Below are positions 1-36,956 of a stretch of DNA of 39,040 bases, piece by piece (the first letter of the stretch is position 1; each line of letters begins with the position of its first letter). Where the stretch lies: positions 1-39,040 of IMG/VR virus record IMGVR_UViG_3300048598_000487; one strand, written 5' to 3'. The position numbers and the translations under genes were made by a program. Source of the DNA: a virus (taxonomy: Duplodnaviria; Caudoviricetes). Below the pieces are notes generated by a model. The model worked only from the letters and a program-made list of their open reading frames with translations, made no database searches and was not told where the DNA came from.

Positions 1-54
1 TCACTTAACCTTGCCAAGGTTAGAACACGGGTTCGAATCCCGTCGCCCGCACCA
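1..54 (+). tRNA. tRNA-Gly(GCC), 3' portion (5' end outside window); provirus integration target
   Basis: Anticodon arm TAACC-TTGCCAA-GGTTA (6-22), T arm ACGGG-TTCGAAT-CCCGT (27-43), acceptor 3' strand CGCCCGC, discriminator A, encoded CCA (52-54). A73 is the archaeal/eukaryotic Gly discriminator. Confidence 0.95.
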
Positions 55-1095
55 ACGATCATACCGGTTAGCACGCCTCCGCCGGTCATCAGAAGGGAAA
101 GGGAGGTGAGGTTGCGGGGGGCTCGCAGGCTCGGGGAGTTTGGCGACGCACCAAACCTGCTGGGCCTCCGCGATCGCTTTATCGTTCTTCTTCCGTGCGT
201 AGTAGGTTTCCGTGGTCTTGGTGCTGGCATGCCCCATCATCCGGGACACCGCGTCGAGCGGTACTCCGGAGTCGATGCCGACCTGTCCCCAGGTGCGGCG
301 GCACGCTCTCAGATCGTACTCGACACCAGTCTCCCTGCGGACGATGGCCCGCAGGTCGGTGGTGCCGTTGGTCGAGAACACCCCGTCCCGTCCCTTCTGC
401 AGGTTCTGCAAGCTGGGGAACAGCAGGTCCGAGACAAGGTATTCATTGGCTAGGCTCTTCGCCCTGGCCCGGAGATAGCGGCGCAGGATCGGCAGGCCGT
501 CGGGATGTATGGCCGAGTCCCGTGGCTCGCCATAGCGCCCCTTGCCCTTGACCTCTTCCGCGTGCATGACGCCGCGATCGAGGTCCAGGTCCCCGACCCT
601 GGAGAACCGCAGTTCTTTGGGACGGAGCCCCGAGCAGATCCCCAGGACCGACATGGCATAGGCTTCCATGCGGCGCCAATCATCGTCCGGAACGCGCGCC
701 GCGGCATCAATGATCGTTGCGCGGTCCCGGTCCGAGATGGGGTCCAGCCTCCTCACGGCGTTATGCGGAAAGTGCTGCGGGAACCTGATCCTCGCCCGGT
801 CCACCGCCGCATTGCCTATGTACCGGCACAGCCCGGCCAGGGCATCGATGTTGTGATCGATGCCGCTGTCGGCCATGCCCCTGGACCGGAGCAGGCTGAT
901 GTATGACAGGACGTCCAGGTCGACGAAATGATGAGGGTTGGTGCTCTTGATCTTCCCAACCTGCTTGAGAGTCGTCATGTCCTTATGCATTCGCCGCAGC
1001 CTCCGTCCCAGCTCCTTGTGGGTGGACTCGGCGATCGCTCCGCCCATGACCCCAAGGTATTCGTTGGACACGGTTAGGAAGGGATAGCGTCCCAT
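1..1095 (-). CDS. int: Tyrosine recombinase/integrase
   Basis: Catalytic motifs SGLRPKEL (R), VKGK (K), ACRRTW, MMGH, TTETYY (Y). Start likely ATG 1095 (MGRYPFL) after a GCGAGGT RBS rather than 1167. The ORF runs through attL and stops antisense within the tRNA. Confidence 0.93.
   Translation of the reverse strand: MGRYPFLTVSNEYLGVMGGAIAESTHKELGRRLRRMHKDMTTLKQVGKIKSTNPHHFVDLDVLSYISLLRSRGMADSGIDHNIDALAGLCRYIGNAAVDRARIRFPQHFPHNAVRRLDPISDRDRATIIDAAARVPDDDWRRMEAYAMSVLGICSGLRPKELRFSRVGDLDLDRGVMHAEEVKGKGRYGEPRDSAIHPDGLPILRRYLRARAKSLANEYLVSDLLFPSLQNLQKGRDGVFSTNGTTDLRAIVRRETGVEYDLRACRRTWGQVGIDSGVPLDAVSRMMGHASTKTTETYYARKKNDKAIAEAQQVWCVAKLPEPASPPQPHLPFPSDDRRRRANRYDRWCGRRDSNPCSNLGKVK
40..54 (+). repeat. 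attL core CCGTCGCCCGCACCA
   Basis: Identical to 36769-36783; equals the tRNA 3' end. Confidence 0.95.
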
Positions 1096-1221
1096 GGACC
1101 TCGCCCCCCTCCTACGCCCCGTCCGCGCCTTGACCACGGTAGCCCGAGCTTGTAGCATCGGAACCACCAGGGGGCGGAAGGGTGCGGCGCATAATAATAT
1201 CTCCCGAGATCGACGGCTAGG

Positions 1222-4292: not shown

Positions 4293-4567
4293 GATGAGCG
4301 ACGATCCAAATCCTGATTGATATTTCTCATGTGTTTTTGAACCAGCTCGCGTAGCGCAGGGTTTTCGAGATCTTCCTTTTCCCCACCCACGATCGTGATG
4401 GCCACACATCTCAGTTCCACATGACCCCCCGCGAAGGAGGCTGCATATGACCATAATACCATCTGTGAGAGGTGCCCGAAAATCATCGGCGCATATTGCG
4501 CTTTTATTGCATCGCACCATATTTTAACTGGACAAAACAAAATTACCGAGGCATGTTGATGCGCCAA
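4256..4567 (-). CDS. Possible hypothetical protein convergent on the AbrB-like gene
   Basis: TTG start with GGAAGGGT upstream and a minus-strand TTTATAA at 4601-4607; no recognisable motif. Confidence 0.3.
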   Translation of the reverse strand: MAHQHASVILFCPVKIWCDAIKAQYAPMIFGHLSQMVLWSYAASFAGGHVELRCVAITIVGGEKEDLENPALRELVQKHMRNINQDLDRRSSHLSSDSSTNSM

Positions 4568-4668
4568 CCAACCCTTCCAAATACCGAAAGTGCAGACGCA
4601 TTATAAACGATCCTTATCCCCTAACGATGATGGTCTATCGAATCACCGGAAACAACCCTTCGTCGGAG

Positions 4669-4747
<79 letters not shown>

Positions 4748-4837
4748 GAAGGGGCGAGAGCACCAAGATATCTTCTTGCTCTATTGATTTTTAGAAAACA
4801 TACTCCACGGGGACCGTCACCGGAAATCGTACCTACG

Positions 4838-4878
4838 TATTTTTAAATTACAATAGTATTGAACCTCAAGGAGGCGGA
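4838..4878 (+). promoter_or_regulatory. Promoter and RBS of the rightward early operon
   Basis: TTTTTAAATT TATA-like box, ATTACAAT motif (4847), GGAGGCGG RBS at 4870. Confidence 0.65.
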
Positions 4879-4881
4879 GCA

Positions 4882-5409
4882 ACGGCACGTCCTAAAAAAT
4901 ATGAGCATGGGTTCAAGATCGTCACTTTTTCCGCGCCAGAGGATTTGAGCAAGAGACTGAGGGATTATGGGGAGGCCAATCCTGGTGGGCTATCGTCGTT
5001 CATCTGCGAGTGCCTGGAAGCCAAACTAACTGGGGTCGACTCCAAGCGGATCGCAAAGGAGTTGCGGACGGAGAACGACCAGATTACCATACTACGAGGT
5101 GAACTCTCCGAGCACGAACAGAGGGCCAGAGATCTCCAGGCCCAGCTGAACGAGCAGAGGGAAATCCATCAAGACACCACTGACAATCGCATCGAACTCC
5201 TCGCGCAATGCGTGCGCACCGGCCGCATCAACGACCTCGAGCTGTTCCGCGCTTGGGCCGACGCCCCGGCTGGGCGGGAGGTCCTCCCCCGCTGTAGGTT
5301 CCCAACCGCCGATGACGCCTTCGAATGGATGTCCTCCGATCCCGATGCCGTCGCCTGGCGAGGCGACAACGATCCCCGCGTGCGCAAGCTGCAAGGGGGA
5401 TTGAAGTGA
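4882..5409 (+). CDS. Ribbon-helix-helix (CopG-like) + coiled-coil protein
   Basis: In-frame upstream extension (T)ARPKKYEHGFKIVTFSAPEDLSKRL...LSSFICECLE gives a full RHH; start is ACG 4882 or TTG 4945. Confidence 0.7.
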   Translation, partial: TARPKKYEHGFKIVTFSAPEDLSKRLRDYGEANPGGLSSFICECLEAKLTGVDSKRIAKELRTENDQITILRGELSEHEQRARDLQAQLNEQREIHQDTTDNRIELLAQCVRTGRINDLELFRAWADAPAGREVLPRCRFPTADDAFEWMSSDPDAVAWRGDNDPRVRKLQGGLK

Positions 5410-5624
5410 CCACCCGATCGGAGCGCATATCGGAATGGCTGGCAACCCTGCCGCAGGACGGCCGGTTCACCACCACCGACGCCTACGAACGCTTCCTGCG
5501 TCGCTGGCCGAGCATGAGGTTCAGCCGCATGAACGCCGCGCAGCAACTGACCAAGAGCGGAATGTTCCAGCGGGTCGATGCCCGCGCCCGCGACCAGGTG
5601 TGGACCGCAGCGGTGGATCAATGA
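5406..5624 (+). CDS. Small winged-helix-like protein
   Basis: GTG start overlapping the upstream TGA; FTTTDAYERF...AAQQL...FQRV...W. Confidence 0.6.
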   Translation: MTTRSERISEWLATLPQDGRFTTTDAYERFLRRWPSMRFSRMNAAQQLTKSGMFQRVDARARDQVWTAAVDQ

Positions 5625-7166: not shown

Positions 7167-7529
7167 ATGCCTCTCTACAAGGGACACTTGATCTGCACCA
7201 AGTCCGGGACCGTGCGCTACACCAAGGGTGCCTCGACCAAACCCAGCGAGGTCGCCGTATCGTTCAACTTCGAGCTCCCCGACACCCTGTTCTGGAAGCC
7301 GGTCATCCCGCTCAAGGTCCAGGTCGACCCGGTCAAACCCCCGGTCATCACGCCGGAGCTGCGCGTGAAGGCGCAGGAATTGCTGGAGAAGGAGTTCGGG
7401 CTGAAGATCGAGCTCGCCATCGTCGCCAAGGACCCCTGCCCCGAATGCGGCCTGTACCGTGACGGGGAATGTGATCCCGAGAAGGACCCCTGCGACGAGA
7501 GGAAGACCTTCATGGAGGTGAGGGGGTGA
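7167..7529 (+). CDS. Hypothetical protein, C-terminal Cys cluster
   Basis: CPEC...C...C; operon tiling. Confidence 0.7.
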   Translation: MPLYKGHLICTKSGTVRYTKGASTKPSEVAVSFNFELPDTLFWKPVIPLKVQVDPVKPPVITPELRVKAQELLEKEFGLKIELAIVAKDPCPECGLYRDGECDPEKDPCDERKTFMEVRG

Positions 7530-7909
7530 ACGCGCTCAGCAGCGCCTGCGCCACGCGACATCACAACGCGTGCAAGGGCGTCAAGGGCCGCGGCGATGAC
7601 GCGCAGCCATGCGGGTGCGTATGTCATGCCCGCTCGGCGGTCGTCGCGCAGAAGGAGCAGCGCCGCGCGGCGAAGGCCGCAAAGCCCAGACCGAGGCCCG
7701 ATCGCCAATCATTCCACGGAGCCCGGGGCGTTGGGAAATCGGCGCTCATGGAGGAACAGGTCAAGAAGGCCGAGGGGGAGGGCAAGAAGGTCCTGGTCAT
7801 CAGGCCCGACACCGAGGGCCGCCCGGCATGCTACGGCCTCTGCTACGAGCTGTCCAGCGCGTGCAATGCATGCGGCAGCTTCAACGCTTGCAGGAAGGCG
7901 ACGATATGA
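7526..7909 (+). CDS. Cys-rich hypothetical protein
   Basis: GTGA coupling; Cys clusters at both ends; central GARGVGKS. Confidence 0.6.
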   Translation: MNALSSACATRHHNACKGVKGRGDDAQPCGCVCHARSAVVAQKEQRRAAKAAKPRPRPDRQSFHGARGVGKSALMEEQVKKAEGEGKKVLVIRPDTEGRPACYGLCYELSSACNACGSFNACRKATI

Positions 7910-8592
7910 TCACGGCATCTGCGGGGGGGGGGGTGTCCCGCGTGAGCAGCCGCTCCCGTAATCCTTCCCGCGCTCTCATGAAGCGGGACGTCTGGGCTCT
8001 CGGTCCGCCCTCCAACGGCTACCCTGGCGCGTTCCCGCGAGGGCTTATCAAGCGCATCAAAGCCAACGGGTGGTGGGGGCAGGACCGGCTGTGGATGTTC
8101 AGCGGCTCATTCCAGGATGTAGGCGGAACCATGGTGGATGCACGATCCGGACGGGTATGCTCAAAATGCCGTAACGTCGAGGTCGCATGCAAGTGCCCCG
8201 ACGGCCCTGCGCTCTCCAAGGTCGAGGTGCGCCCGACCTTTGTAGCGGATTGCGAGGACCTGCCGTGCGAGGACGAATCATTTGATTTCGTGATGCTGGA
8301 CCCACCATATTCGGAGGCCGAGGCTGCCGACCTGTACGACATGCCGTACTGCAACATCCCCAAGGTGGTCAACGAGGCAGCTCGAGTATGCGCTCCGGGC
8401 GGCCGGGTGCTGATGCTGCATCGCCTGATACCGTGGGCCGGGCCGTGGGAGAACGAGCACAAGAAGCGCCTGGTCCCGGAGGCGGTGATCGGTGTGTACA
8501 CCATCGCCGGTTACACCAATATTCGCTGTCTTAGCGTGTGGCGGAAGAACGAGAGCCTGACGCCATTCCTCGGGGACGGTGACCGACAATGA
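7906..8592 (+). CDS. SAM-dependent amino (N6-A/N4-C) methyltransferase
   Basis: YPGAFPRG, WMFSGS, ADCEDLP..DESFDFVMLDPPY, EAARVCAPGG. Start could also be GTG 7942 or ATG 7978. Confidence 0.8.
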   Translation: MITASAGGGVSRVSSRSRNPSRALMKRDVWALGPPSNGYPGAFPRGLIKRIKANGWWGQDRLWMFSGSFQDVGGTMVDARSGRVCSKCRNVEVACKCPDGPALSKVEVRPTFVADCEDLPCEDESFDFVMLDPPYSEAEAADLYDMPYCNIPKVVNEAARVCAPGGRVLMLHRLIPWAGPWENEHKKRLVPEAVIGVYTIAGYTNIRCLSVWRKNESLTPFLGDGDRQ

Positions 8593-8894
8593 CCCGTCAC
8601 AGCCCGTTCACCAGGCGGGGACGCCAGATGCTCCTGCACCTGCGGAGGAACGACCCTGACGCGCTGCTTAAGGACAGCGACCGGCGAGCGTTCACCCAGC
8701 CGGGGATAGCCAAGGAACTCGGGGCCAGCCGCGGGACGACCTCCGATCTTCTCCGCGTGTTCACCGACGAGGGGTTGGTCATCCAGGGCCGGACAGTGGT
8801 CGGAGGCCAGGGAGCGACCCCGTACACCTACATTCTCACCGACAAGGGCCGAGCCGCCGCCAAGCTCGTCGCGCTGCTGGAGGAACAGTCATGA
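8589..8894 (+). CDS. Winged-helix DNA-binding protein
   Basis: FTQPGIAKELGASRGTTSDLLRVFTDEGLV...YILTDKG. Confidence 0.8.
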   Translation: MTRHSPFTRRGRQMLLHLRRNDPDALLKDSDRRAFTQPGIAKELGASRGTTSDLLRVFTDEGLVIQGRTVVGGQGATPYTYILTDKGRAAAKLVALLEEQS

Positions 8895-9208
8895 ACATCG
8901 CGGTCATCGATCACGTCATCGCGACGTCACTGGACCTCCGGGAGCGCGTCATCGTTTACCTGGCCGCCCTTCCTCCATGCGAGCCGGGAGCGTTCGACGC
9001 GGAGAGGACCACGGACCGCATAGCGAGGACGCTGGGCAGCTCCACCGCGAACATGTACCGCACGATCACGCTGATGGAGGCCGAGCGGCTCATCAGATCG
9101 GACCGGACCTATCCGAACCGAGGCAGCCAGCGCGGGTACACCTCGGTCTGGTCGCTCACCGAGGACGGGCGCAAGTTGGCCGAGGCCATCAGGGAGAGGA
9201 TGACATGA
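8891..9208 (+). CDS. Winged-helix DNA-binding protein
   Basis: IARTLGSSTANMYRTITLMEAERLI...WSLTEDG. Confidence 0.8.
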   Translation: MNIAVIDHVIATSLDLRERVIVYLAALPPCEPGAFDAERTTDRIARTLGSSTANMYRTITLMEAERLIRSDRTYPNRGSQRGYTSVWSLTEDGRKLAEAIRERMT

Positions 9209-9402
9209 GCGCCGCGGGCTCGACGATCGTCATACCCTGCCGGTGCGAGAACGGCCGTCCCTGCGGCAAGACCATGGAGGTCAGGACGATCGGCAAGATG
9301 ACCATGCTCAACATCGTCGGTCATGACGACAGCAAGGGCATGATGCTCATCGACGAGGACCGCCGCAAGCTGATCGAGGCGCTCGGAGGCGAGGCCCGAT
9401 GA
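9205..9402 (+). CDS. Hypothetical protein
   Basis: ATGA coupling at both ends. Confidence 0.6.
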   Translation: MSAAGSTIVIPCRCENGRPCGKTMEVRTIGKMTMLNIVGHDDSKGMMLIDEDRRKLIEALGGEAR

Positions 9403-9692
9403 GCTATTCAGAACTGTACGTGACCTGCGCTGACGCCTTCGAGGACCAGGCCCCGCTCAAGGGCAAGGGGCTGCTGGTCAAGGAGTTCCCCGAGAAGGTC
9501 GTCGTGGCGGTGACCGCCGACGAGCCCGTAGAGTTCGAGCTCGAGGGCCTGATGGGGTGCACCATCGAGCCGTTCTATTTCTACATCTGGAAGAACGGCT
9601 GGCTGGCCACTATCCTGGCTCCCGACGGCGGGCCTATTATGGGGAGGGGCATGGAGGATGAACTGATCAGGATCATCGGAGGCAGAGCATGA
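9399..9692 (+). CDS. Hypothetical protein
   Basis: ATGA coupling, GC3 bias. Confidence 0.65.
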   Translation: MSYSELYVTCADAFEDQAPLKGKGLLVKEFPEKVVVAVTADEPVEFELEGLMGCTIEPFYFYIWKNGWLATILAPDGGPIMGRGMEDELIRIIGGRA

Positions 9693-10255
9693 TCCGCAGC
9701 CACGTCAGCGGCGACTCGATCGTCAACCGCGTTTACTGCGATGAATGCGGTTGGCGCCTCTCCCTCCACTATAAGGACGAGATGGGGGACGATTTCGGAC
9801 CGGGAGATGACGACTATCTCCACCCGATGAAGGCCGAGCAGCACCTCTGCCCGATCTGTTTCAATCGCATCATGAAGCGCGCGGTGCGATCGCACTGCCA
9901 CACCGACTGCCGCACCAAGCCCTGCGAGCGTGGCCACGACTGCTGGGTCAACCCCTTCCCGCAGCTCATGTACCTGCACTACGTCTCGCAGCGCGTCGGG
10001 AACTTCCATCCGCACGTCCCTCGGCTCCTCGAGCTGACCTTCGGGCGGGTCGAGGGCAAGTGCTGCGCGCATCCCAAGCGCGTCCGGACGGCCTATTTCG
10101 ATGAGGACCATGGCACCGAGTATGAGGACCTCTGCGATGGTTGCGGCAAGTACTGCGACTGGGCAGAGTGCGATCACCAATGTTCTTGCTACGGCGAGGA
10201 CGGCGTGGAGATCGACATCAGGACAGGCCGGCAGATCACGGAGATGATCTCATGA
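9689..10255 (+). CDS. Cys/His-rich multi-zinc protein
   Basis: Multiple CxxC motifs (CDEC, CPIC, CDGC). Confidence 0.65.
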   Translation: MIRSHVSGDSIVNRVYCDECGWRLSLHYKDEMGDDFGPGDDDYLHPMKAEQHLCPICFNRIMKRAVRSHCHTDCRTKPCERGHDCWVNPFPQLMYLHYVSQRVGNFHPHVPRLLELTFGRVEGKCCAHPKRVRTAYFDEDHGTEYEDLCDGCGKYCDWAECDHQCSCYGEDGVEIDIRTGRQITEMIS

Positions 10256-10983
10256 CACGCTCCATCGGGGCGACAAGATTGGAGTGCTGTCTGCGTTACA
10301 CCAAATGTGAACCGTGGGCATATGGGAGTTGCGCGGATTGCGAATTTCGTCCCCTCAAGATCTATCAAGGAAACAGTCTCAAGCGGTCAGTCGTCCGATT
10401 TTGCAACGAGCACGGCGTCGGCATCATGATGTGCACGGACTGGCGGAACCCTATGAAGTTTCCCTATTATGCCCTGGACAATGGCGCCTACTCTGCCTGG
10501 TCCAACGGACGGGAGTGGGACGAGGAGCACTTTCTCAAGATATTGGTTCGGGCGATGGTGGCTATCAGGCAACCAGACTTCGTCGTTGTGCCCGACCAGG
10601 TCGCTGCTGGGGGGGATTCCCTGCGCTTCTCGGTGAAATGGATCAAGAGACTTCCCGAGTTTCCCGGCACGCGATACATGCTGGCGGTGCAGGATGGTAT
10701 GGAAGAGGAGGAAGTTCACAATGCGCTCAAAAAGTGGGACTTCGGTGGGCTATTTGTCGGGGGGACGATGGGCTGGAAGCTCAAGACTTCGCCGCAGTGG
10801 GTAGATCTTGCGCATCACCATCACATGCCGTGCCACATAGGACGCATAGGGCCGTGGCATCGCATTCTATGGGCAGCCAGGATAGGGGCCGACAGCATAG
10901 ACTCAACCACCTGGGTGCAGCAGGACAGGCTGCATCACATCACCGACGCCAAGATGCAGCAGACACTCGGGACGGTGGTCTAA
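10252..10983 (+). CDS. TGT-fold (DpdA-like) base-exchange enzyme
   Basis: ALDNGAYS, VVPD, AVQDG, LFVGG, CHIGR, GADSIDSTTW match tRNA-guanine transglycosylase-like barrels of viral DNA-modification loci. Confidence 0.7.
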   Translation: MTRSIGATRLECCLRYTKCEPWAYGSCADCEFRPLKIYQGNSLKRSVVRFCNEHGVGIMMCTDWRNPMKFPYYALDNGAYSAWSNGREWDEEHFLKILVRAMVAIRQPDFVVVPDQVAAGGDSLRFSVKWIKRLPEFPGTRYMLAVQDGMEEEEVHNALKKWDFGGLFVGGTMGWKLKTSPQWVDLAHHHHMPCHIGRIGPWHRILWAARIGADSIDSTTWVQQDRLHHITDAKMQQTLGTVV

Positions 10984-11411
10984 TGGTCATCCTCTCGTTC
11001 AGCGTCAAGGAGGCCGAGATCCAGGCGGGGGTAAAGATCAGGACCACCAGGGTCTACACTCCGGAGAAGCACGCGCTATGGCAGCGCACGCTGGTCGGCG
11101 GGGACAAGACCCTCCAGGGCTGGTGGAAATCTCGCCGCCCGGAGGGGTACAAGCTGTTCGATCGGCAGGGGCACGATCTTTTCCGCATGAAATGGGAGCG
11201 GAGTGAGAAGGGCGAAACCCTCATTCCTGCTCGGGAATTAGTTCCGATGTCGGGACGCTTCATTACTATGGAGCCCATCGAAGCATGGCAGTACATCAAC
11301 GAGGAAGGCTTCAACGGAGACCTGAAGGAGCTGAGCATGTTCTTCGAGGAACATTACCCGAACGTCGAGGACATCATCTTCCAATCCATCGCCTTCCCCC
11401 CGGAGGAGTAA
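10983..11411 (+). CDS. ASCH (PUA-like) domain protein
   Basis: ILSFSVKEAEIQAGVKIRTTR (GxKxxTxR) ... EEGFNGDLKELSMFFEEHY; TAATG coupling to the TGT-like gene. Confidence 0.7.
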   Translation: MVILSFSVKEAEIQAGVKIRTTRVYTPEKHALWQRTLVGGDKTLQGWWKSRRPEGYKLFDRQGHDLFRMKWERSEKGETLIPARELVPMSGRFITMEPIEAWQYINEEGFNGDLKELSMFFEEHYPNVEDIIFQSIAFPPEE

Positions 11412-13544
11412 ATGGCCGTACCGCAGTCGGCCGCAGGGGACGCAGCGTTGACCGCCTCCGGAGTCTCCGACGTCTCTCGATGGGAGGCGTTCTTCCAGGG
11501 CACCGAGTACATGCAGAGGGTCCGCGAGGTCGCCGACCTATACCCCGAGGTCCGCAGCGTCAACGTCAAGTACGATGACCTGGACCGATTCGACGCCGAC
11601 CTCGCCGCCAGCCTGCTGGAGCACCCCGACCTGTACCTCCTGGCGGGCAAGCAGGCGATGAAGAACCTGATGCACCAGGACATGCGCGGCGCGGACATCG
11701 CGGTGCGCGTCGACCGCCTGCCCCGCGACGCCAGGGTCAACATCCGCGACCTGCGCGGCAAGTACCTCGGCCGCCTGGTGAGCTTCGAAGCGTTGGTAAC
11801 GCGCGCCACGCAGGTGAAGAGCGACGTGCGCATCGGGCGGTTCAAGTGCCTGCGGTGCGGGCATACCATTACCCAGGAGATGGAGGGACAGCACTTCTCC
11901 GAGCCGATGGAGTGCGCCAAGGAACAGGACGGCTGCGGACGCTCGGCCGCCTCCACCCGGTTCAAGTTCCTCCCGGACATGACCGTCACCCAGGACATCC
12001 AGAAGATCGAGTGCCAGGAGCCGCTGGAGAATGCGCGCGGGGGCACTTCCCCGGCCCGCGTCACAGTGTGGCTGACCGGCGAGCTGGCCGGGGCGGTAAG
12101 CGCGGGGAACCGCGTCATCGTCAACGGCATGCCGAAGATGGTGAGGCAGGGAAATCCTCCAAAGAGCACGATCATGGAGACCGACGTCGACGCGGTGAGC
12201 GTCGAAGTGCAAGGACAGGAGTTCGGCGAGCTGGAGATATGCGACGAGGATCGCGAGCGCATCGAGGCGATGGCACGCTCCCCGCTGCTGTACCAGGACC
12301 TCATCGCCTCGATCTCGCCGAGCATCCGCGGCTATGAGATGGAGAAAGCGGGGCTCCTTCTGCAGCTGTTCGGCGGCGTCCCCAAGGTCCTCGACGACGG
12401 CACGCGGCTGCGCGGCGACATCCACATCCTGCTGGTCGGCGATCCAGGGGTCGCGAAGAGCGCGATGGTGCGGTACATGTCGCGGCTCGCGCCGCGCGGG
12501 GTGTTCGCCAGCGGCAAATCGTCCAGCGCGGCTGGCCTGACCTGCGCGGCCACCAAGGACGGCGATTGGGGCGAGGGCCGGTGGACGCTGGAGGCCGGGG
12601 CCATGGTCCTCGCCGACAACGGGTTCCTGGGCGTGGACGAGCTGGACAAGATGAAGGACGAGGACCGCTCGTCCATGCACGAGGGAATGGAGCAGCAGCA
12701 GATCCACTATAACAAGGCGGGCATCGCCGCCACGCTGCAGACGCGCTGCTCCATACTCGCAGCCATGAACCCGGAGGACGGGAGGTTCGACGGCAACCGC
12801 ACGCTGGTAGAGCAGCTGGACATACCGGACACGCTGGTCAGCAGGTTCGACGCCATCTTCCTGATCCAGGACCGGCCCAACGTGCAGCGGGACACCGACA
12901 TCTCCGGGCACATCCTCCAGTCGCACCGCCGCGGCGGTGCGCTCGCCAACATCGGTGAGGAGGGCATGGCCGGAATCCTGCAGGAGACGGAAGAGGTGGC
13001 CCCCAGATACGACGCGGAGATAATGCGCAAGTACGTGGCCTACGCGCGTCGCATCAAGCCGGTGCTGACGGTCGAGGCCATCGGCGCGATACAGCAGCAC
13101 TACGTCGGCATCCGCAAGCTCGGCGAGGGGGACGACAAGGCGGTGCCGATCACCGCGCGTCAGCTCGAGGGCTACGTGCGCATGGCCGAGGCTTCGGCGC
13201 GATCGCGGCTGTCGCGGTGGGTGCAAGCGCAGGACGCCAAGCGCGCGATCGACGTGGTCGAGTACTACCTGAATCTCTTCACCCCGACCAACGGCGGCCT
13301 GCGGGACATCGACGCAGTGATGGCGCCGATGCCGAAGAACAAGCGCGACAAGGTGCGCGCGGTCCTGGACATCATAAGGACCGGGGGCAGCGAGGGCATA
13401 TCGATCATGGAGGTGTGCGAGGTCGCCGACGAGAAGCTCAAGCTGGACGAGGACGAGGTCAAGGAAATGATCCAGAAGCTGCTGCAGCGCGGCTCGATCA
13501 CCGAGGTCGACGCGGCCAGGGGCGTAATGAAGGTGGTCAAGTGA
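11412..13544 (+). CDS. mcm: MCM replicative helicase
   Basis: Zn finger CLRC...C..C, Walker A GDPGVAKS, WTLEAGAMVLAD, Walker B VDELDKM, SRFD, ITARQLE, C-terminal wHTH. Confidence 0.97.
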   Translation: MAVPQSAAGDAALTASGVSDVSRWEAFFQGTEYMQRVREVADLYPEVRSVNVKYDDLDRFDADLAASLLEHPDLYLLAGKQAMKNLMHQDMRGADIAVRVDRLPRDARVNIRDLRGKYLGRLVSFEALVTRATQVKSDVRIGRFKCLRCGHTITQEMEGQHFSEPMECAKEQDGCGRSAASTRFKFLPDMTVTQDIQKIECQEPLENARGGTSPARVTVWLTGELAGAVSAGNRVIVNGMPKMVRQGNPPKSTIMETDVDAVSVEVQGQEFGELEICDEDRERIEAMARSPLLYQDLIASISPSIRGYEMEKAGLLLQLFGGVPKVLDDGTRLRGDIHILLVGDPGVAKSAMVRYMSRLAPRGVFASGKSSSAAGLTCAATKDGDWGEGRWTLEAGAMVLADNGFLGVDELDKMKDEDRSSMHEGMEQQQIHYNKAGIAATLQTRCSILAAMNPEDGRFDGNRTLVEQLDIPDTLVSRFDAIFLIQDRPNVQRDTDISGHILQSHRRGGALANIGEEGMAGILQETEEVAPRYDAEIMRKYVAYARRIKPVLTVEAIGAIQQHYVGIRKLGEGDDKAVPITARQLEGYVRMAEASARSRLSRWVQAQDAKRAIDVVEYYLNLFTPTNGGLRDIDAVMAPMPKNKRDKVRAVLDIIRTGGSEGISIMEVCEVADEKLKLDEDEVKEMIQKLLQRGSITEVDAARGVMKVVK

Positions 13545-13780
13545 AGTTCATCTGTCCAACGTGCGGTGGGGAAGGAGTACTCCAGCCGTTCGTTTATCCG
13601 TACTTTGTGAAGGGGCTCATCAGGAGAAGATACTTCGCGATGTGCTCCTGCCCCAATTGCTTCCGCAGGACTGTGGTCAGATCATCATTTGACGCCGAGA
13701 TGACACGCTCCCAGTTCAAGCAGCTCCTAGTAGAGATAGAGGCGCGTTCCAGGACGCCGATCGGGAGGGTGGATGATTGA
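13541..13780 (+). CDS. Zn-finger protein
   Basis: GTG start; CPTC...CPNC. Confidence 0.6.
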   Translation: MKFICPTCGGEGVLQPFVYPYFVKGLIRRRYFAMCSCPNCFRRTVVRSSFDAEMTRSQFKQLLVEIEARSRTPIGRVDD

Positions 13781-14803
13781 ATGAAGGTCGGCTCACTCTT
13801 CACTGGCATCGGAGGGCTGGACCTCGGCCTGGAGCGTGCGGGCATGGAGGTCGCCTGGCAATGCGAGGTCGACCCGTTCTGCCGGGAGATACTGCGGAAG
13901 AACTGGCCGGGGGTGCCGGTCTATGACGACATTCGAGGAATACGACGGGTACGAGGAGGAGCAACGAGAACTGGAGGAGGACCTGGAGGCGTGGCGGGAG
14001 GAGTTCTGGAAGAGCTATCGCCCGTTCTCCCGCAACATAGCGACGAGGGAACAGGCGGAGCGGTCGATCGGGTCGATGTCCTGGTGGGCGGATTCCCATG
14101 CCAGGACCTCAGCGTGGCGGGCCGCGGTGCGGGCCTTAAAGGCGAACGAAGCGGACTGTGGTTTGAGATGCTCAGATGCATTCGCCTGGTTCGACCCAAG
14201 TACGCTGTCGTGGAGAACGTTCCAGGTCTCGTTAACCGGGGACTCAACGCCGTTCTTGGGGGTCTGGCCCTTAGCTCTTATGATGCGGAGGTCGATTGTA
14301 TATCGGCGGCAGCCGTCGGGGCGTGCCATCGACGCGATAGGATCTTCATCGTTGCCTACCCCGAGCGCGACGCCGTATGGGACGAACCGGTCACCGAGCA
14401 ACGGAGCGAGGGTCCGACCCTCGCTCCAGACAATGGCATCGAAGAACCTCTGGCCGACGCCCTGGGCGTCGGCCTCGCACGGGGCAGGCCTGCACGGAAA
14501 GGGAGGGATGGACCTACAGACGGCGGTCAAGCAAGGGGAGTCGGCCAGGCCGACTCCCCGCTCTCACTGCGTGGACATGGGCACGCTCCTGATGGCGAAG
14601 TATTCGGGCCAGGCGCGAAAGAAGCGCTTGCCCGGTTCCGACTACGATCCCGAGAATGGTGGGATGCTGAACCCGACGTGGGTCGAGTGGCTGATGGGGT
14701 TCCCCATCGGGTGGACAGACTCAGATGCCTCGGAAACGCCGTCGTCCCCCAGGTCGCGGAAGCAATAGGGGAAGCGATCATAAGATGGGAAGGGCTGGCA
14801 TGA
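13781..14803 (+). CDS. C5-cytosine DNA methyltransferase, large (alpha) subunit lacking motif IX
   Basis: Motifs I FTGIGG, IV GGFPCQ, VI ENV, VIII HRRDRIF, X LGNAVVP. Confidence 0.92.
   Translation: MKVGSLFTGIGGLDLGLERAGMEVAWQCEVDPFCREILRKNWPGVPVYDDIRGIRRVRGGATRTGGGPGGVAGGVLEELSPVLPQHSDEGTGGAVDRVDVLVGGFPCQDLSVAGRGAGLKGERSGLWFEMLRCIRLVRPKYAVVENVPGLVNRGLNAVLGGLALSSYDAEVDCISAAAVGACHRRDRIFIVAYPERDAVWDEPVTEQRSEGPTLAPDNGIEEPLADALGVGLARGRPARKGRDGPTDGGQARGVGQADSPLSLRGHGHAPDGEVFGPGAKEALARFRLRSREWWDAEPDVGRVADGVPHRVDRLRCLGNAVVPQVAEAIGEAIIRWEGLA
13923..14768 (+). CDS. Nested +1-frame small (beta) subunit of the C5 methyltransferase
   Basis: Open +1 frame wholly inside the alpha gene; GGGGTG RBS before ATG 13923; LPTP/WPTP/RPTP repeats; motif IX-like LNPTWVEWLMGFPIGWT. 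Confidence 0.75.
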   Translation: MTTFEEYDGYEEEQRELEEDLEAWREEFWKSYRPFSRNIATREQAERSIGSMSWWADSHARTSAWRAAVRALKANEADCGLRCSDAFAWFDPSTLSWRTFQVSLTGDSTPFLGVWPLALMMRRSIVYRRQPSGRAIDAIGSSSLPTPSATPYGTNRSPSNGARVRPSLQTMASKNLWPTPWASASHGAGLHGKGGMDLQTAVKQGESARPTPRSHCVDMGTLLMAKYSGQARKKRLPGSDYDPENGGMLNPTWVEWLMGFPIGWTDSDASETPSSPRSRKQ

Positions 14804-15225
14804 CCGCATCATGTCAGCCGTGGTGGTCCGCAAAGCAGGACATCGGGACCCCTAGAGATCTCTTCGATCTGCTAGATGCCGAGTTTCATTTCAGTCTCGA
14901 CCCATGCTCTACCGATGCCAATGCTAAATGCGCTCGACATTACACCCCCGAGCAGGACGGTCTGGCGCAGAGATGGGACGGGGCGGTGTTCATCAACCCC
15001 CCATATGGAAAGATAGATCCGTGGGTGGAGAAGGCGTTGCGGGAGATAGATCACTGTGAAGTCATCGTCTTCCTGGTCCCATCTAGGACAGACCGCCCAT
15101 GGTTCCATGCCCTTCTACGTGGGGGGGCGGAGTTGAGATGGCTGGATCATCGCATACAGTTCGAGGGAATGAAACACAAGGCAATGTTCGCCTGTTTCGT
15201 CGCAATACTGAGGGGGCCGCGGTAA
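14800..15225 (+). CDS. Phage-type DNA N6-adenine methyltransferase (Dam family)
   Basis: TPRDLFDLLDAEFHFSLDPC...DGLAQRW...FINPPYG...LVPSRTD. Confidence 0.9.
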   Translation: MTASCQPWWSAKQDIGTPRDLFDLLDAEFHFSLDPCSTDANAKCARHYTPEQDGLAQRWDGAVFINPPYGKIDPWVEKALREIDHCEVIVFLVPSRTDRPWFHALLRGGAELRWLDHRIQFEGMKHKAMFACFVAILRGPR

Positions 15226-33815: not shown

Positions 33816-33938
33816 ATGAGCGAGGAAACACTGGAGAGGATCAGGGACATCGGGGCCACCGCGGCGGTGTGGGCATGGGCGATCGTGGGCATACTGGCCA
33901 TCGTGCTGATGATCAAGGTCGGGTGCATCATATGGTGA
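33816..33938 (+). CDS. 40-aa membrane peptide
   Basis: GGAGG RBS; AAVWAWAIVGILAIVLMIKVGCIIW. Confidence 0.6.
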   Translation: MSEETLERIRDIGATAAVWAWAIVGILAIVLMIKVGCIIW

Positions 33939-35386
33939 GTGGCTTCGTCGATCCGAGCTTCGGCCCCAATAGGTTCAGGGGCGAGAGTTCCATCAATCTC
34001 AACCAGGCGTTCGGCCGGGACGGCGCCGCCAACGACGATGGCCATGCAACCACGCTGCCGAGCCGCAGCTCGTGGGAGTTCAAGTGCACCCGGTTCTACA
34101 ACCTGGCGGCCCAGGGCGTCAAGGTCGATCGCTCCGAGGGGCACGATCCCCAGGCCAAGGACGTCCTGGTGGCCGCCGGATGGGAGGCGGTCGCCGCCGA
34201 TCTCCTGGAGACCCTCGACGCGGCGCACATCTACGGCATTCAATGCATCTTCACCCTTGGGGGGCTGAGCGATCCCAACACCTGGCAGCAGGCGGAGAAG
34301 CTGCTGGACACCGAGAGCGCCGAGTTCAGGGAGTTCCAGGTCTTCATGGCCAAGATCGCGGACGCGCTCTACGGCCATCCCGCGCTCAAGTTGCTGGAGG
34401 CGCTCAACGAGGCCGACTTCCGCAGCGTGATCAAGGGACATTGGCTGAAGCTGTTCCCGCAGGGCTACATGCAGCTGCTGCGCGGCTTCGCCGTCTGGCA
34501 GGTCACGCTGCTCGACGGCGTCCGCGAGCTGCAGATGCGCAAAGGAACGCCACTGGGCAACGGTACCGCGATGGACGGCACGCTGTACACCGATCCCAAC
34601 GGCAATGCGGCCATGCCCTGGGGCACCAACGAGTGCATCTACGAGATCATCCCGCTGATGGGGGCCGGTTGCGACGTGTGGACGCCGCACATCTACCAGA
34701 ACGAGGACAATCCAGATCACCTCCTGGTGCTCCGGCGCGATAAGGTGCCGTCGTTCGTTCGTGCCGCCGAGGTCGCCGCCATGGAGCTGATCATCGCCGA
34801 GGCGGGGGCGCTATGGCGGGGCGGCACCCGGACAGCCGAGCTGCAAGCAGTGTTCGATCAGTACCCCGGTCTCACCGTGTGCTGGATGATCAGGTCCTGG
34901 GATCCCAAGATCTACTCGGTCCCGGTCATCCCCGTTCGCGTGCCTTACTCTCCTGCGCCGGTAGAAACCCCTGTCGAGACGCCAGCGCCGGTGGCTAACG
35001 ATCCGGTACCCGAGCCTAGTGATTCCTCCTCTCCGGCGCAGGACACCCCGGAGGAAGAGGGTGACAAGGAAGAGGGTGACAAGGAAGAGGGTGACAAGGA
35101 AGAGGGTGACAAGGAAGAGGGTGACAAGGAAGAGGGTGAGGACGTGCCTCCGGAGGCCGCAGAGCCGCCCGCCGTCGAGGAGCCTGCCTCGGAGACGCCT
35201 GCGACGGACCCGCCCGCTAATGAGCCTCCTAGCGAGGACCCGACGGAATCGACCGACCCCGGAGAAGAAACATCCAACGGAAATGAAGGCGCTCCGGAGG
35301 GGTCGACGGTGACGGGCAATAAGGGGGCCGGGTTCGTGATCATCGAGATCCTGAGATGGATATTCAGCCTGTTCAGAAGGAGATGA
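33932..35386 (+). CDS. Clan GH-A (GH5-like) glycoside hydrolase; candidate endolysin
   Basis: LDAAHIYGIQCIFTL, YGHPAL..EALNEA (acid/base), TPHIY, IIAEAG (nucleophile); acidic Pro-rich linker; amphipathic end IIEILRWIFSLFRRR. Confidence 0.7.
   Translation: MVSGFVDPSFGPNRFRGESSINLNQAFGRDGAANDDGHATTLPSRSSWEFKCTRFYNLAAQGVKVDRSEGHDPQAKDVLVAAGWEAVAADLLETLDAAHIYGIQCIFTLGGLSDPNTWQQAEKLLDTESAEFREFQVFMAKIADALYGHPALKLLEALNEADFRSVIKGHWLKLFPQGYMQLLRGFAVWQVTLLDGVRELQMRKGTPLGNGTAMDGTLYTDPNGNAAMPWGTNECIYEIIPLMGAGCDVWTPHIYQNEDNPDHLLVLRRDKVPSFVRAAEVAAMELIIAEAGALWRGGTRTAELQAVFDQYPGLTVCWMIRSWDPKIYSVPVIPVRVPYSPAPVETPVETPAPVANDPVPEPSDSSSPAQDTPEEEGDKEEGDKEEGDKEEGDKEEGDKEEGEDVPPEAAEPPAVEEPASETPATDPPANEPPSEDPTESTDPGEETSNGNEGAPEGSTVTGNKGAGFVIIEILRWIFSLFRRR
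35054..35139 (+). repeat. Perfect 15-bp tandem repeat GAAGAGGGTGACAAG x5 + partial (EEGDK)
   Basis: Read directly; in frame within the hydrolase linker. Confidence 0.95.
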
Positions 35387-36783: not shown

Positions 36784-36956
36784 CTATCCATATCCAGGCA
36801 GGTACTCATTTTTTCAATCAGGGGGCTATTGGACACTGGCTGCGTCTGGCTTACCGGACTGGGTATTGTTACGACAGTCCAGGCCCGTTGAGCCTCCGCA
36901 ACCGCTTGGTCGTTCTTCTTGCGCGCGTAGTAGGTCTCGGTCGTCTTGCTCGTAGA
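36784..36956 (-). pseudogene. C-terminal relic of a second, related tyrosine integrase
   Basis: Minus strand encodes STSKTTETYYARKKNDQAVAEAQRAW vs ASTKTTETYYARKKNDKAIAEAQQVW in the proviral integrase. Confidence 0.85.

What the first reader, a model, noticed from the sequence alone, without database searches (positions are those of the whole stretch)
10252..11411. TGT/DpdA-like transglycosylase translationally coupled to an ASCH protein, with no precursor genes
The TGT-fold gene (with an extra Cys-rich N-terminus) is joined by TAATG to an ASCH gene, right before MCM. Known viral DpdA enzymes swap guanine for 7-deazaguanines and often come with folE/queD/queE/queC; none is present here. Archaea make preQ0 for archaeosine, so the virus could tap the host pool. 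ASCH domains bind or process modified nucleotides. Inference: a minimal writer + reader/eraser DNA-modification (or tRNA-targeting) module.
Basis: partly seen in the sequence, partly recalled or inferred. Interest (0 to 1): 0.7.

Follow-up and report, generated by a model that had tools for sequence, protein, structure and literature searches.

The report
Compact viral DpdA-like guanine-swapping enzyme
A virus integrated in what is likely a methane-making archaeon carries a compact enzyme predicted to swap guanine in its own DNA for a host-made 7-deazaguanine, a known disguise against host nucleases; the ASCH gene beside it is real but does not travel with it in related viruses, so the two are likely separate tools and not one module.

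Summary
Both genes are real. 10252-10983 (243 aa) folds as a TGT barrel and keeps the three active-site aspartates (D76, D115, D217). It belongs to a widespread compact viral family (671 relatives; phrog_15826). In 23 of 67 distinct related loci a queD, queC, queE, folE, QueF-like or preQ0-transporter gene lies within 300 nt, which ties the family to 7-deazaguanine chemistry. No such gene was found in this provirus. All 5 tested Methanomassiliicoccales carriers encode the full preQ0 pathway. 10983-11411 is an ASCH protein with the YqfB-type K-T-R-E amidohydrolase residues. The pairing is not conserved: 0 of 85 TGT loci have an adjacent ASCH of this clade and 0 of 10 ASCH loci have the TGT. The TAATG overlap is ordinary: 12 of 12 junctions here overlap or abut. 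DpdA-only viruses using host precursor are already published. What is new: a subfamily apparently outside DpdA1-4, with a changed pocket (invariant Lys176, Gly197-Arg198) and an N-terminal Cys4 motif. Activity is untested.

The parts
10252..10983 (+). Compact DpdA-like (TGT-fold) guanine transglycosylase, 243 aa, family phrog_15826
   Evidence: GC3 0.70 against 0.81-0.91 in the three neighbouring genes
10285..10341 (+). N-terminal Cys4 motif (C12, C19, C27, C30), predicted zinc site; found in a subclade only
   Evidence: block pLDDT 82-88; zinc binding inferred
10477..10491 (+). DNGAY motif: D76 (predicted general acid/base) and Y80 (predicted base stacking)
   Evidence: D76 in 205 of 207 aligned sequences; aligned by hhalign to CAjan DpdA DSGAF; roles from DpdA Asp95/Phe99 (PMC10164549)
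10834..10905 (+). HIGRIG ... DSIDS: H195, family-specific G197-R198, and D217 (predicted nucleophile)
   Evidence: H195 and D217 in 207 of 207; aligned to ArcTGT HLFGCG...DLFDS
10983..11411 (+). ASCH-domain protein, 142 aa, with YqfB-type G-x-K18-x-x-T21-x-R23 and E108; predicted amidohydrolase; recurs near MCM in related viruses
9689..10255 (+). Upstream Cys/His-rich ORF, overlapping the TGT start (ATGA); no family found
11412..13544 (+). MCM helicase (context)
7906..8592 (+). DNA methyltransferase-like gene (context, same gene run)
13781..15225 (+). C5 cytosine methyltransferase with an overprinted second frame, then a Dam-type adenine methyltransferase (context)
1..1167 (-). Tyrosine integrase running into a tRNA fragment at 1-51; left edge of the provirus (context)

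Best explanation
The gene at 10252-10983 encodes a compact TGT-fold enzyme that likely acts as a stand-alone viral DpdA, predicted to swap some guanines in the replicated viral DNA for host-made preQ0 (or a close 7-deazaguanine) and so to blunt host restriction, while the neighbouring ASCH protein likely works independently of it. Shown: fold, conserved residues, gene context, non-conserved pairing. Inferred by analogy to DpdA/TGT: D217 attacks the sugar and releases guanine, D76 acts as acid/base, D115, Q147 and Y80 hold the base, and the 7-deazaguanine displaces the enzyme. Inferred from context: DNA is the substrate (no PUA or other tRNA-binding domain; early replication region with three DNA methyltransferases), the base comes from the host's archaeosine pathway, and modification is probably sparse. 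The low GC3 and patchy distribution suggest a later-acquired accessory gene that landed next to a resident ASCH-MCM block. The ASCH protein is predicted to be a YqfB-type amidohydrolase acting on N4-acetylcytidine in tRNA or free nucleosides.
For: Fold. Active site: D76 205/207, D115 206/207, Q147 207/207, G171 207/207, H195 207/207, D217 207/207, in the same order as in CAjan DpdA (dPreQ0 shown) and ArcTGT. Guilt by association: 23 of 67 distinct loci have a 7-deazaguanine gene on the same strand within 300 nt (24 by my profiles, one unconfirmed and dropped); these loci are spread across the tree. Distant cultured relatives are annotated 'DpdA-like tRNA-guanine transglycosylase' and sit beside a Vut_1/YhhQ transporter. 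Hosts: 5 of 5 tested carriers have ArcTGT, QueC, QueD, a QueE-like gene beside them, and GCHY-1. A methyltransferase-type cluster lies within 6 kb in 22 of 67 loci (one cluster also holds ParB-like proteins). Independence of ASCH; L001 shares the portal and C5 MTase with this virus and has the TGT without the ASCH.
Against: No member of this family has been assayed in the papers I saw. The pocket differs from canonical DpdA/TGT: Gly197 sits where a hydrophobic residue sandwiches the base (DpdA Leu236), and Arg198 replaces the usual Gly, so preQ0 specificity is not assured. DpdA-only phages can be unmodified (Orion, host without the pathway) or barely modified (7-11, 0.02% of G). Profile comparisons to ArcTGT, CAjan DpdA and HVTV1_69 give only short, non-significant matches; the residue mapping rests on motif order and secondary structure, not on a superposition I could inspect. 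By VIA Z alone unrelated TIM barrels tie with TGT. One related virus (L009) has a 71-codon ASCH piece 1.2 kb upstream of its TGT, cut by the contig end. The host is inferred, not named.
Confidence: 0.62

Rival explanations
1. Same writer, different base: the remodelled pocket takes the anionic precursor CDG (7-carboxy-7-deazaguanine) instead of preQ0.
For: Invariant basic residues in the pocket loops: K176 in 206 of 207, two residues past the loop that sets C7-substituent specificity in TGTs, and R198 in 195 of 207. Of 50 whole records 8 have QueD and 4 QueC, none both; 5 of the QueD-only records are 100% complete. L058 has folE-queD-queE with no queC in the locus. dCDG exists in a virus (STSV-2) with no enzyme assigned (PMC10516641).
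Against: 6 loci carry queC, two of them with queE (L080 has the full preQ0 set), and the sister clade carries a QueF-like T-fold gene that would act on preQ0. The two basic residues could simply bind DNA phosphates.
Confidence: 0.13
2. First reader's module: the TGT writes a 7-deazaguanine and the ASCH protein reads or edits it (for example by hydrolysing a 7-amide).
For: Adjacent and overlapped genes; the ASCH protein has amidohydrolase residues; L009 holds both genes 1.2 kb apart.
Against: 0 of 85 TGT loci have this ASCH adjacent (80 show at least 500 nt downstream); 0 of 10 ASCH loci (about 7 distinct) have the TGT; no overlap among 261 genomes; 2 of 55 records carrying the TGT have any ASCH match; no ASCH in the two long forms found; the overlap is the norm for this gene run.
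Confidence: 0.08
3. RNA-targeting enzyme: the barrel, perhaps with the PUA-like ASCH protein standing in for ArcTGT's PUA domain, re-modifies host tRNA.
For: ArcTGT is the top VIA row; Q147 matches TGT's Gln rather than DpdA's His; ArcTGT has a PUA domain; all 19 ASCH proteins tested in 10.64898/2026.02.27.708502 act on tRNA.
Against: The host already has ArcTGT; the protein has no C-terminal zinc or tRNA-binding domains; family members lie among DNA methyltransferases and with the gene set of DNA-modifying phages; most have no ASCH.
Confidence: 0.08
4. Intact but nearly idle accessory gene, or a non-nucleic-acid role like Cap10 (base conjugation involving a protein).
For: Orion's DNA is unmodified; relatives occur in phages of M. 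smegmatis, which lacks the pathway; Cap10 scores Z 13.6 and has the same His-Asp spacing of 22.
Against: Near-invariant active site over 207 sequences; no CBASS or Cap9 partner seen in the loci; the mycobacteriophage copies come with a precursor transporter.
Confidence: 0.09

Closest known systems
Phage DpdA1 (Escherichia phage CAjan gp35; DpdA-only phages 7-11 and Orion; PMC6884629)
   Same: Compact TGT barrel; same order of active-site motifs (DSGAF, LDG, GG, H-x-F-G, DSSSW); same partner genes; often no precursor genes.
   Different: Only a 31-column weak profile match (probability 5.8%); Gln for His at the Watson-Crick position; H-x-G-R for H-x-F-G; invariant W/F-K after GG; about 205-245 aa against 306.
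DpdA4 / DUF6610 (HVTV1_69; singleton in some haloviruses; PMC10516641)
   Same: Archaeal virus, TGT-like, can stand alone; nearest named cluster in the ESM Atlas (0.86, a lead only).
   Different: PF20314 hits HVTV1_69 at E 3e-56 and 0 of 119 members of this family; no significant profile match.
'DpdA-like tRNA-guanine transglycosylase' of cluster P mycobacteriophages (Majeke gp54), ReqiPine5 gp03, Erythrobacter phage R6L gp10
   Same: Same family by sequence (26-38% identity, E 1e-4 to 2e-17 for Majeke and R6L) and the same signature motifs.
   Different: Annotation only, no assay seen; bacterial hosts; paired with Vut_1 or PAPS-reductase genes; no Cys4 N-terminus.
Archaeosine tRNA-guanine transglycosylase (ArcTGT, PDB 1iq8)
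   Same: Fold (Z 14.4, rmsd 3.1, 213 aligned), catalytic aspartates, likely the same precursor pool.
   Different: 243 against about 580-640 aa; no C-terminal zinc, C2 or PUA domains.
YqfB-type ASCH amidohydrolases (PDB 9kyf; PMC6972931)
   Same: For the second gene: fold (Z 6.1, rmsd 3.0, 96 aligned) and K21/T24/R26/E74 equivalents (K18, T21, R23, E108).
   Different: A viral clade with insertions; no substrate tested; no link to 7-deazaguanines found in my search.

Membership tests
TGT/DpdA superfamily | TGT-type (beta/alpha)8 barrel | tested here: met
   (all rows shown are TGT-fold)
TGT/DpdA superfamily | Three invariant active-site aspartates | tested here: met
   D76, D115, D217 at 205-207 of 207, at the ends of the expected strands; roles
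TGT/DpdA superfamily | Two hydrophobic residues sandwiching the base (DpdA Phe99, Leu236) | tested here: not met
   Y80 met (Y/F/W in 205 of 207); the second position aligns to G197 (G/A in 207 of 207); alignment by sequence only
TGT / bacterial DpdA | C-terminal structural zinc site | tested here: not met
   no Cys after C194; an N-terminal Cys4 motif exists in a subclade instead; CAjan DpdA also shows no C-terminal Cys cluster
Viral DpdA (functional) | Association with folE/queD/queE/queC/queF/yhhQ in part of the family | tested here: met
   23 of 67 loci within 300 nt; none found in this window
Viral DpdA (functional) | Inserts a 7-deazaguanine into DNA | not testable with these tools
   needs LC-MS/MS or an exchange assay
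DpdA1 | Sequence or profile membership | tested here: inconclusive
   weak match to one reference, CAjan; the Pfam copy did not recognise CAjan DpdA itself, so PF23859 could not be tested
DpdA2 and DpdA3 | Sequence or profile membership | tested here: inconclusive
   only Foldseek rows from nt-1 (TM 0.45, 15% id) and phiST (TM 0.45, 12% id), which I take to be their DpdA proteins; no direct sequence comparison
DpdA4 (DUF6610) | PF20314 match | tested here: not met
   0 of 119 members; positive control HVTV1_69 E 3e-56
ArcTGT | C1/C2/PUA tRNA-binding domains | tested here: not met
   243 aa barrel only; host ArcTGT shows them
ASCH superfamily (second gene) | ASCH fold and GxKxxT/ExR octapeptide | tested here: met
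   K18, T21, R23 in 67 of 67
YqfB-type amidohydrolase (second gene) | Hydrolyses N4-acetylcytidine | not testable with these tools
   residues present; activity needs an assay
Conserved TGT-ASCH module | Gene pair recurs in related viruses | tested here: not met

The most novel reading that the evidence does not exclude
This is a fifth viral DpdA subfamily, widespread from Methanomassiliicoccales proviruses to bacterial phages, whose pocket has been rebuilt with invariant Lys and Arg to insert the carboxylate precursor CDG straight into DNA. That would explain its many QueD-only partners and give viruses a negatively charged guanine mark drawn from the host pathway one step before preQ0; here an added N-terminal zinc finger would help it grip DNA.
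Probability: 0.15. Interest if true: 0.65.

Novelty: new variant of a known kind. Interest (0 to 1): 0.38.

Why it matters
It extends predicted 7-deazaguanine DNA modification to viruses of Methanomassiliicoccales and points to a large, untested, very small (about 210 aa) transglycosylase subfamily that current Pfam models miss. Cultured phages carry it (R6L, Majeke, ReqiPine5), so one LC-MS run can test it. A minimal single-protein base-exchange enzyme would also be a handy DNA-labelling tool. The writer-plus-eraser module, which would have been the surprising part, is not supported.

Tried and rejected
Pfam, NCBIfam and PDB sequence searches with P0001 and P0002 alone found nothing. Foldseek PDB with the ASCH model gave no match at E<=0.001. 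PF04266 does not detect P0002, so the Pfam ASCH count (1 of 50) is insensitive; I repeated it with a 67-sequence profile. That profile still sees only this ASCH clade well, so distant ASCH genes could be missed. The narrow ASCH alignment found no viral contigs locus, and two broader alignments could not be used for that scan, so ASCH-side loci come from one metagenome scan (10 loci, about 7 distinct). Global hhalign runs gave nonsense alignments. Complex prediction of TGT with ASCH returned no verdict; it is no evidence either way. No sequencing run was listed, so expression and insertion variants are untested. The queD-like hit at L023 was not confirmed and was dropped (24 to 23). The tree is the quick one; it labels L070 'none' although that group has queD. 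Searching all 261 genomes with the MCM did not name a host. Only 50 of 80 viral loci were searched as whole records. A 176-aa start called by a database (P0004) was rejected because it would drop the first two barrel strands and conserved Y38. Palindrome counts showed no clear target motif. Iyer et al. 2013 (PMC3763556) is not held; from recall it discusses TGT-like and ASCH domains in DNA-modification neighbourhoods and may bear on novelty. Not-in-print checks: and supplement searches for R6L, Majeke, Ksquared, ReqiPine5 (0 hits in 1 held file of PMC10516641; 0 in 11 files of PMC6884629). Supplementary Data S1 of PMC10516641 was apparently not among the held text and could list this family.

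Full report
Setting. The window is a whole IMG/VR record classed as a provirus (CheckV 44%). It runs from an integrase and tRNA fragment at the left end through an early gene run, terminase, portal and capsid-type genes to lower-GC DNA after about 36 kb, with a second integrase remnant at 36838-36948. The layout looks close to complete, but that is my reading. The host is likely a Methanomassiliicoccales archaeon: all 5 genome hits of the first scan are from that order, the protein groups with them in the tree, and a right-flank protein has relatives in 12 of 261 genomes of the order (no other order was searched).

Observation. ORF A (10252-10983, 243 aa) and ORF B (10983-11411, 142 aa) share the A of TAATG, and MCM follows at 11412. 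The overlap carries no special weight, since 12 of 12 junctions from 7167 to 13781 overlap or abut. Profiles for QueD, QueC, QueE, FolE, QueF, a T-fold protein, Vut_1 and PAPS reductase find nothing convincing in six frames of the window.

ORF A. It has 671 relatives at E<=0.001 among 795 candidates. All 119 aligned members match phrog_15826 (unknown function), 58 weakly match phrog_887 (queuine tRNA-ribosyltransferase) and 8 weakly match Pfam TGT. The AF2 model (pLDDT 94) is an eight-stranded barrel. Foldseek ranks TGTs first (E 2e-6). VIA-align gives ArcTGT Z 14.4, Cap10 13.6 and bacterial DpdA 12.9, though pyruvate kinases and aldolases score alike. In a 207-sequence alignment D76, D115, Q147, G170-G171, H195 and D217 are almost or fully invariant, in the order of the motifs in CAjan DpdA and ArcTGT. 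DpdA uses Asp95 as acid/base, Asp256 as nucleophile, Asp130 and His181 for the base edge, and Phe99 and Leu236 as a sandwich (PMC10164549, passages). Differences from that pattern: Gly197-Arg198 where others have [FLM]-Gly, an invariant Lys176 after the GG loop, no C-terminal zinc site, and an N-terminal Cys4 motif in 31 of 121 proteins. Here residue 35, the usual start Met, is Leu, so the extension is likely part of the protein.

Context of the family. Among 85 loci (67 distinct groups), 24 have a pathway gene on the same strand within 300 nt by my profiles (distances are to open frames, so slightly generous). NCBIfam confirms representatives as QueD, QueC, QueE, FolE and a queuosine-precursor transporter, and the T-fold neighbour weakly as QueF-like; one hit was not confirmed, leaving 23. 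Whole-record searches gave QueD in 8 of 50 and QueC in 4 of 50, never both. The other 44 groups show no pathway gene in the fetched DNA, so the lone state seen here is the majority. Cultured relatives are in 20 phage records; cluster P mycobacteriophage copies are annotated 'DpdA-like' and follow a Vut_1 gene. All 5 tested archaeal carriers encode ArcTGT, QueD, QueC, an adjacent QueE-like gene and GCHY-1, so precursor supply by the host is plausible. The window's own host genome was not available.

ORF B. ESM Atlas structure neighbours are ASCH clusters, the top five VIA rows are ASCH/PUA-like (Z 4.8-6.1, modest), 21 of 67 relatives match PF04266, and the only PDB hits of the profile are YqfB (E 0.07). 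K18, T21 and R23 are invariant in 67 of 67 and position 108 is D/E in 66. These match YqfB Lys21, Thr24, Arg26 and Glu74 (PMC6972931, passages). A preprint reports tRNA ac4C removal by all 19 ASCH proteins tested (10.64898/2026.02.27.708502, passages).

Is it a module? From the TGT side, none of 85 loci has this ASCH adjacent (80 show at least 500 nt downstream). L009 has a truncated ASCH piece 1.2 kb upstream and L011 a distant ASCH about 3.9 kb upstream. From the ASCH side, none of 10 loci has the TGT; they share RusA and other early genes with this virus, and in 4 (two distinct viruses) MCM follows within about 240 nt. In 261 genomes of the order, 8 have the TGT, 5 the ASCH, none both. The TGT gene has GC3 0.70 against 0.84, 0.81 and 0.91 around it. 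I infer an accessory gene that arrived next to a resident ASCH-MCM block.

Mechanism. Most likely (0.62) a stand-alone DNA transglycosylase using host preQ0, working beside three methyltransferases as anti-restriction, with ASCH separate. Rivals: CDG as substrate (0.13), idle or Cap10-like (0.09; 10.1101/2025.04.06.647259, passages), writer-reader pair (0.08), tRNA target (0.08). No activity is shown.

Against what is known. DpdA-only viruses are the largest group in PMC6884629 (76 of 180; passages), with Orion unmodified and 7-11 at 0.02% dADG. PMC8651126 (passages) already proposes host-pathway hijack for the archaeal virus HRTV-29. PMC10516641 (parts 2-5 of 7 read) defines DpdA3 and DpdA4 and notes singleton DpdA4. 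This family fails the DpdA4 test; against DpdA1-3 my tests are inconclusive. It works like a DpdA; filing it as a separate subfamily is probable but unproven. Z. mobilis residue numbering and the M.EcoHK31I comparison in my notes are recalled.

Verdict. Observation confirmed, interpretation half right. New variant of a known kind; interest 0.38.

Noticed in passing
window 13781-14803 and 13836-14768: The C5 methyltransferase gene carries a second long ORF overprinted in another frame that matches phrog_1008 (DNA methyltransferase); the second-frame protein recurs in 7 locus groups including the window. It resembles two-polypeptide methyltransferases such as M.EcoHK31I (recalled).
   Followed up: partly
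L004:5165-5464, L005:3123-3410, L007:2700-2999, L008, L010: In the sister clade the TGT gene abuts a 95-99 aa T-fold gene with weak QueF similarity: a candidate QueF-L-like enzyme that would convert the inserted base.
   Followed up: partly
records G012-G044: Viruses with this TGT carry QueD alone (8 of 50) or QueC alone (4 of 50), never both in that set, always next to the TGT gene. Unexplained.
   Followed up: partly
window 1-51 and 36838-36948: The integrase reading frame runs into a tRNA fragment at the left end; a 71%-identical remnant of an integrase 3' end with a shared 15-nt stretch lies near the right boundary, suggesting repeated integration at one site.
   Followed up: partly
L093:3439-3996, L094:3261-3794 and 4505-5422, L092:7343-8386: Cultured phages pair this TGT family with a Vut_1/YhhQ transporter and/or a PAPS-reductase-domain gene.
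   Followed up: partly
L099:9067-9222: A second, partial ASCH copy lies about 1.6 kb downstream of the full ASCH gene.
   Followed up: no
window 9689-10255: Cys/His-rich 188-aa ORF overlapping the TGT start; no family in Pfam, PHROGs or NCBIfam.
   Followed up: no
window 33869-35386: 505-aa late gene with a perfect 15-nt tandem repeat at 35037-35154 and an acidic linker; no Pfam family.
   Followed up: no
P0203, P0204: Two long proteins (930 and 544 aa) contain this TGT domain joined to unrelated sequence; could be fusions or miscalls.
   Followed up: no
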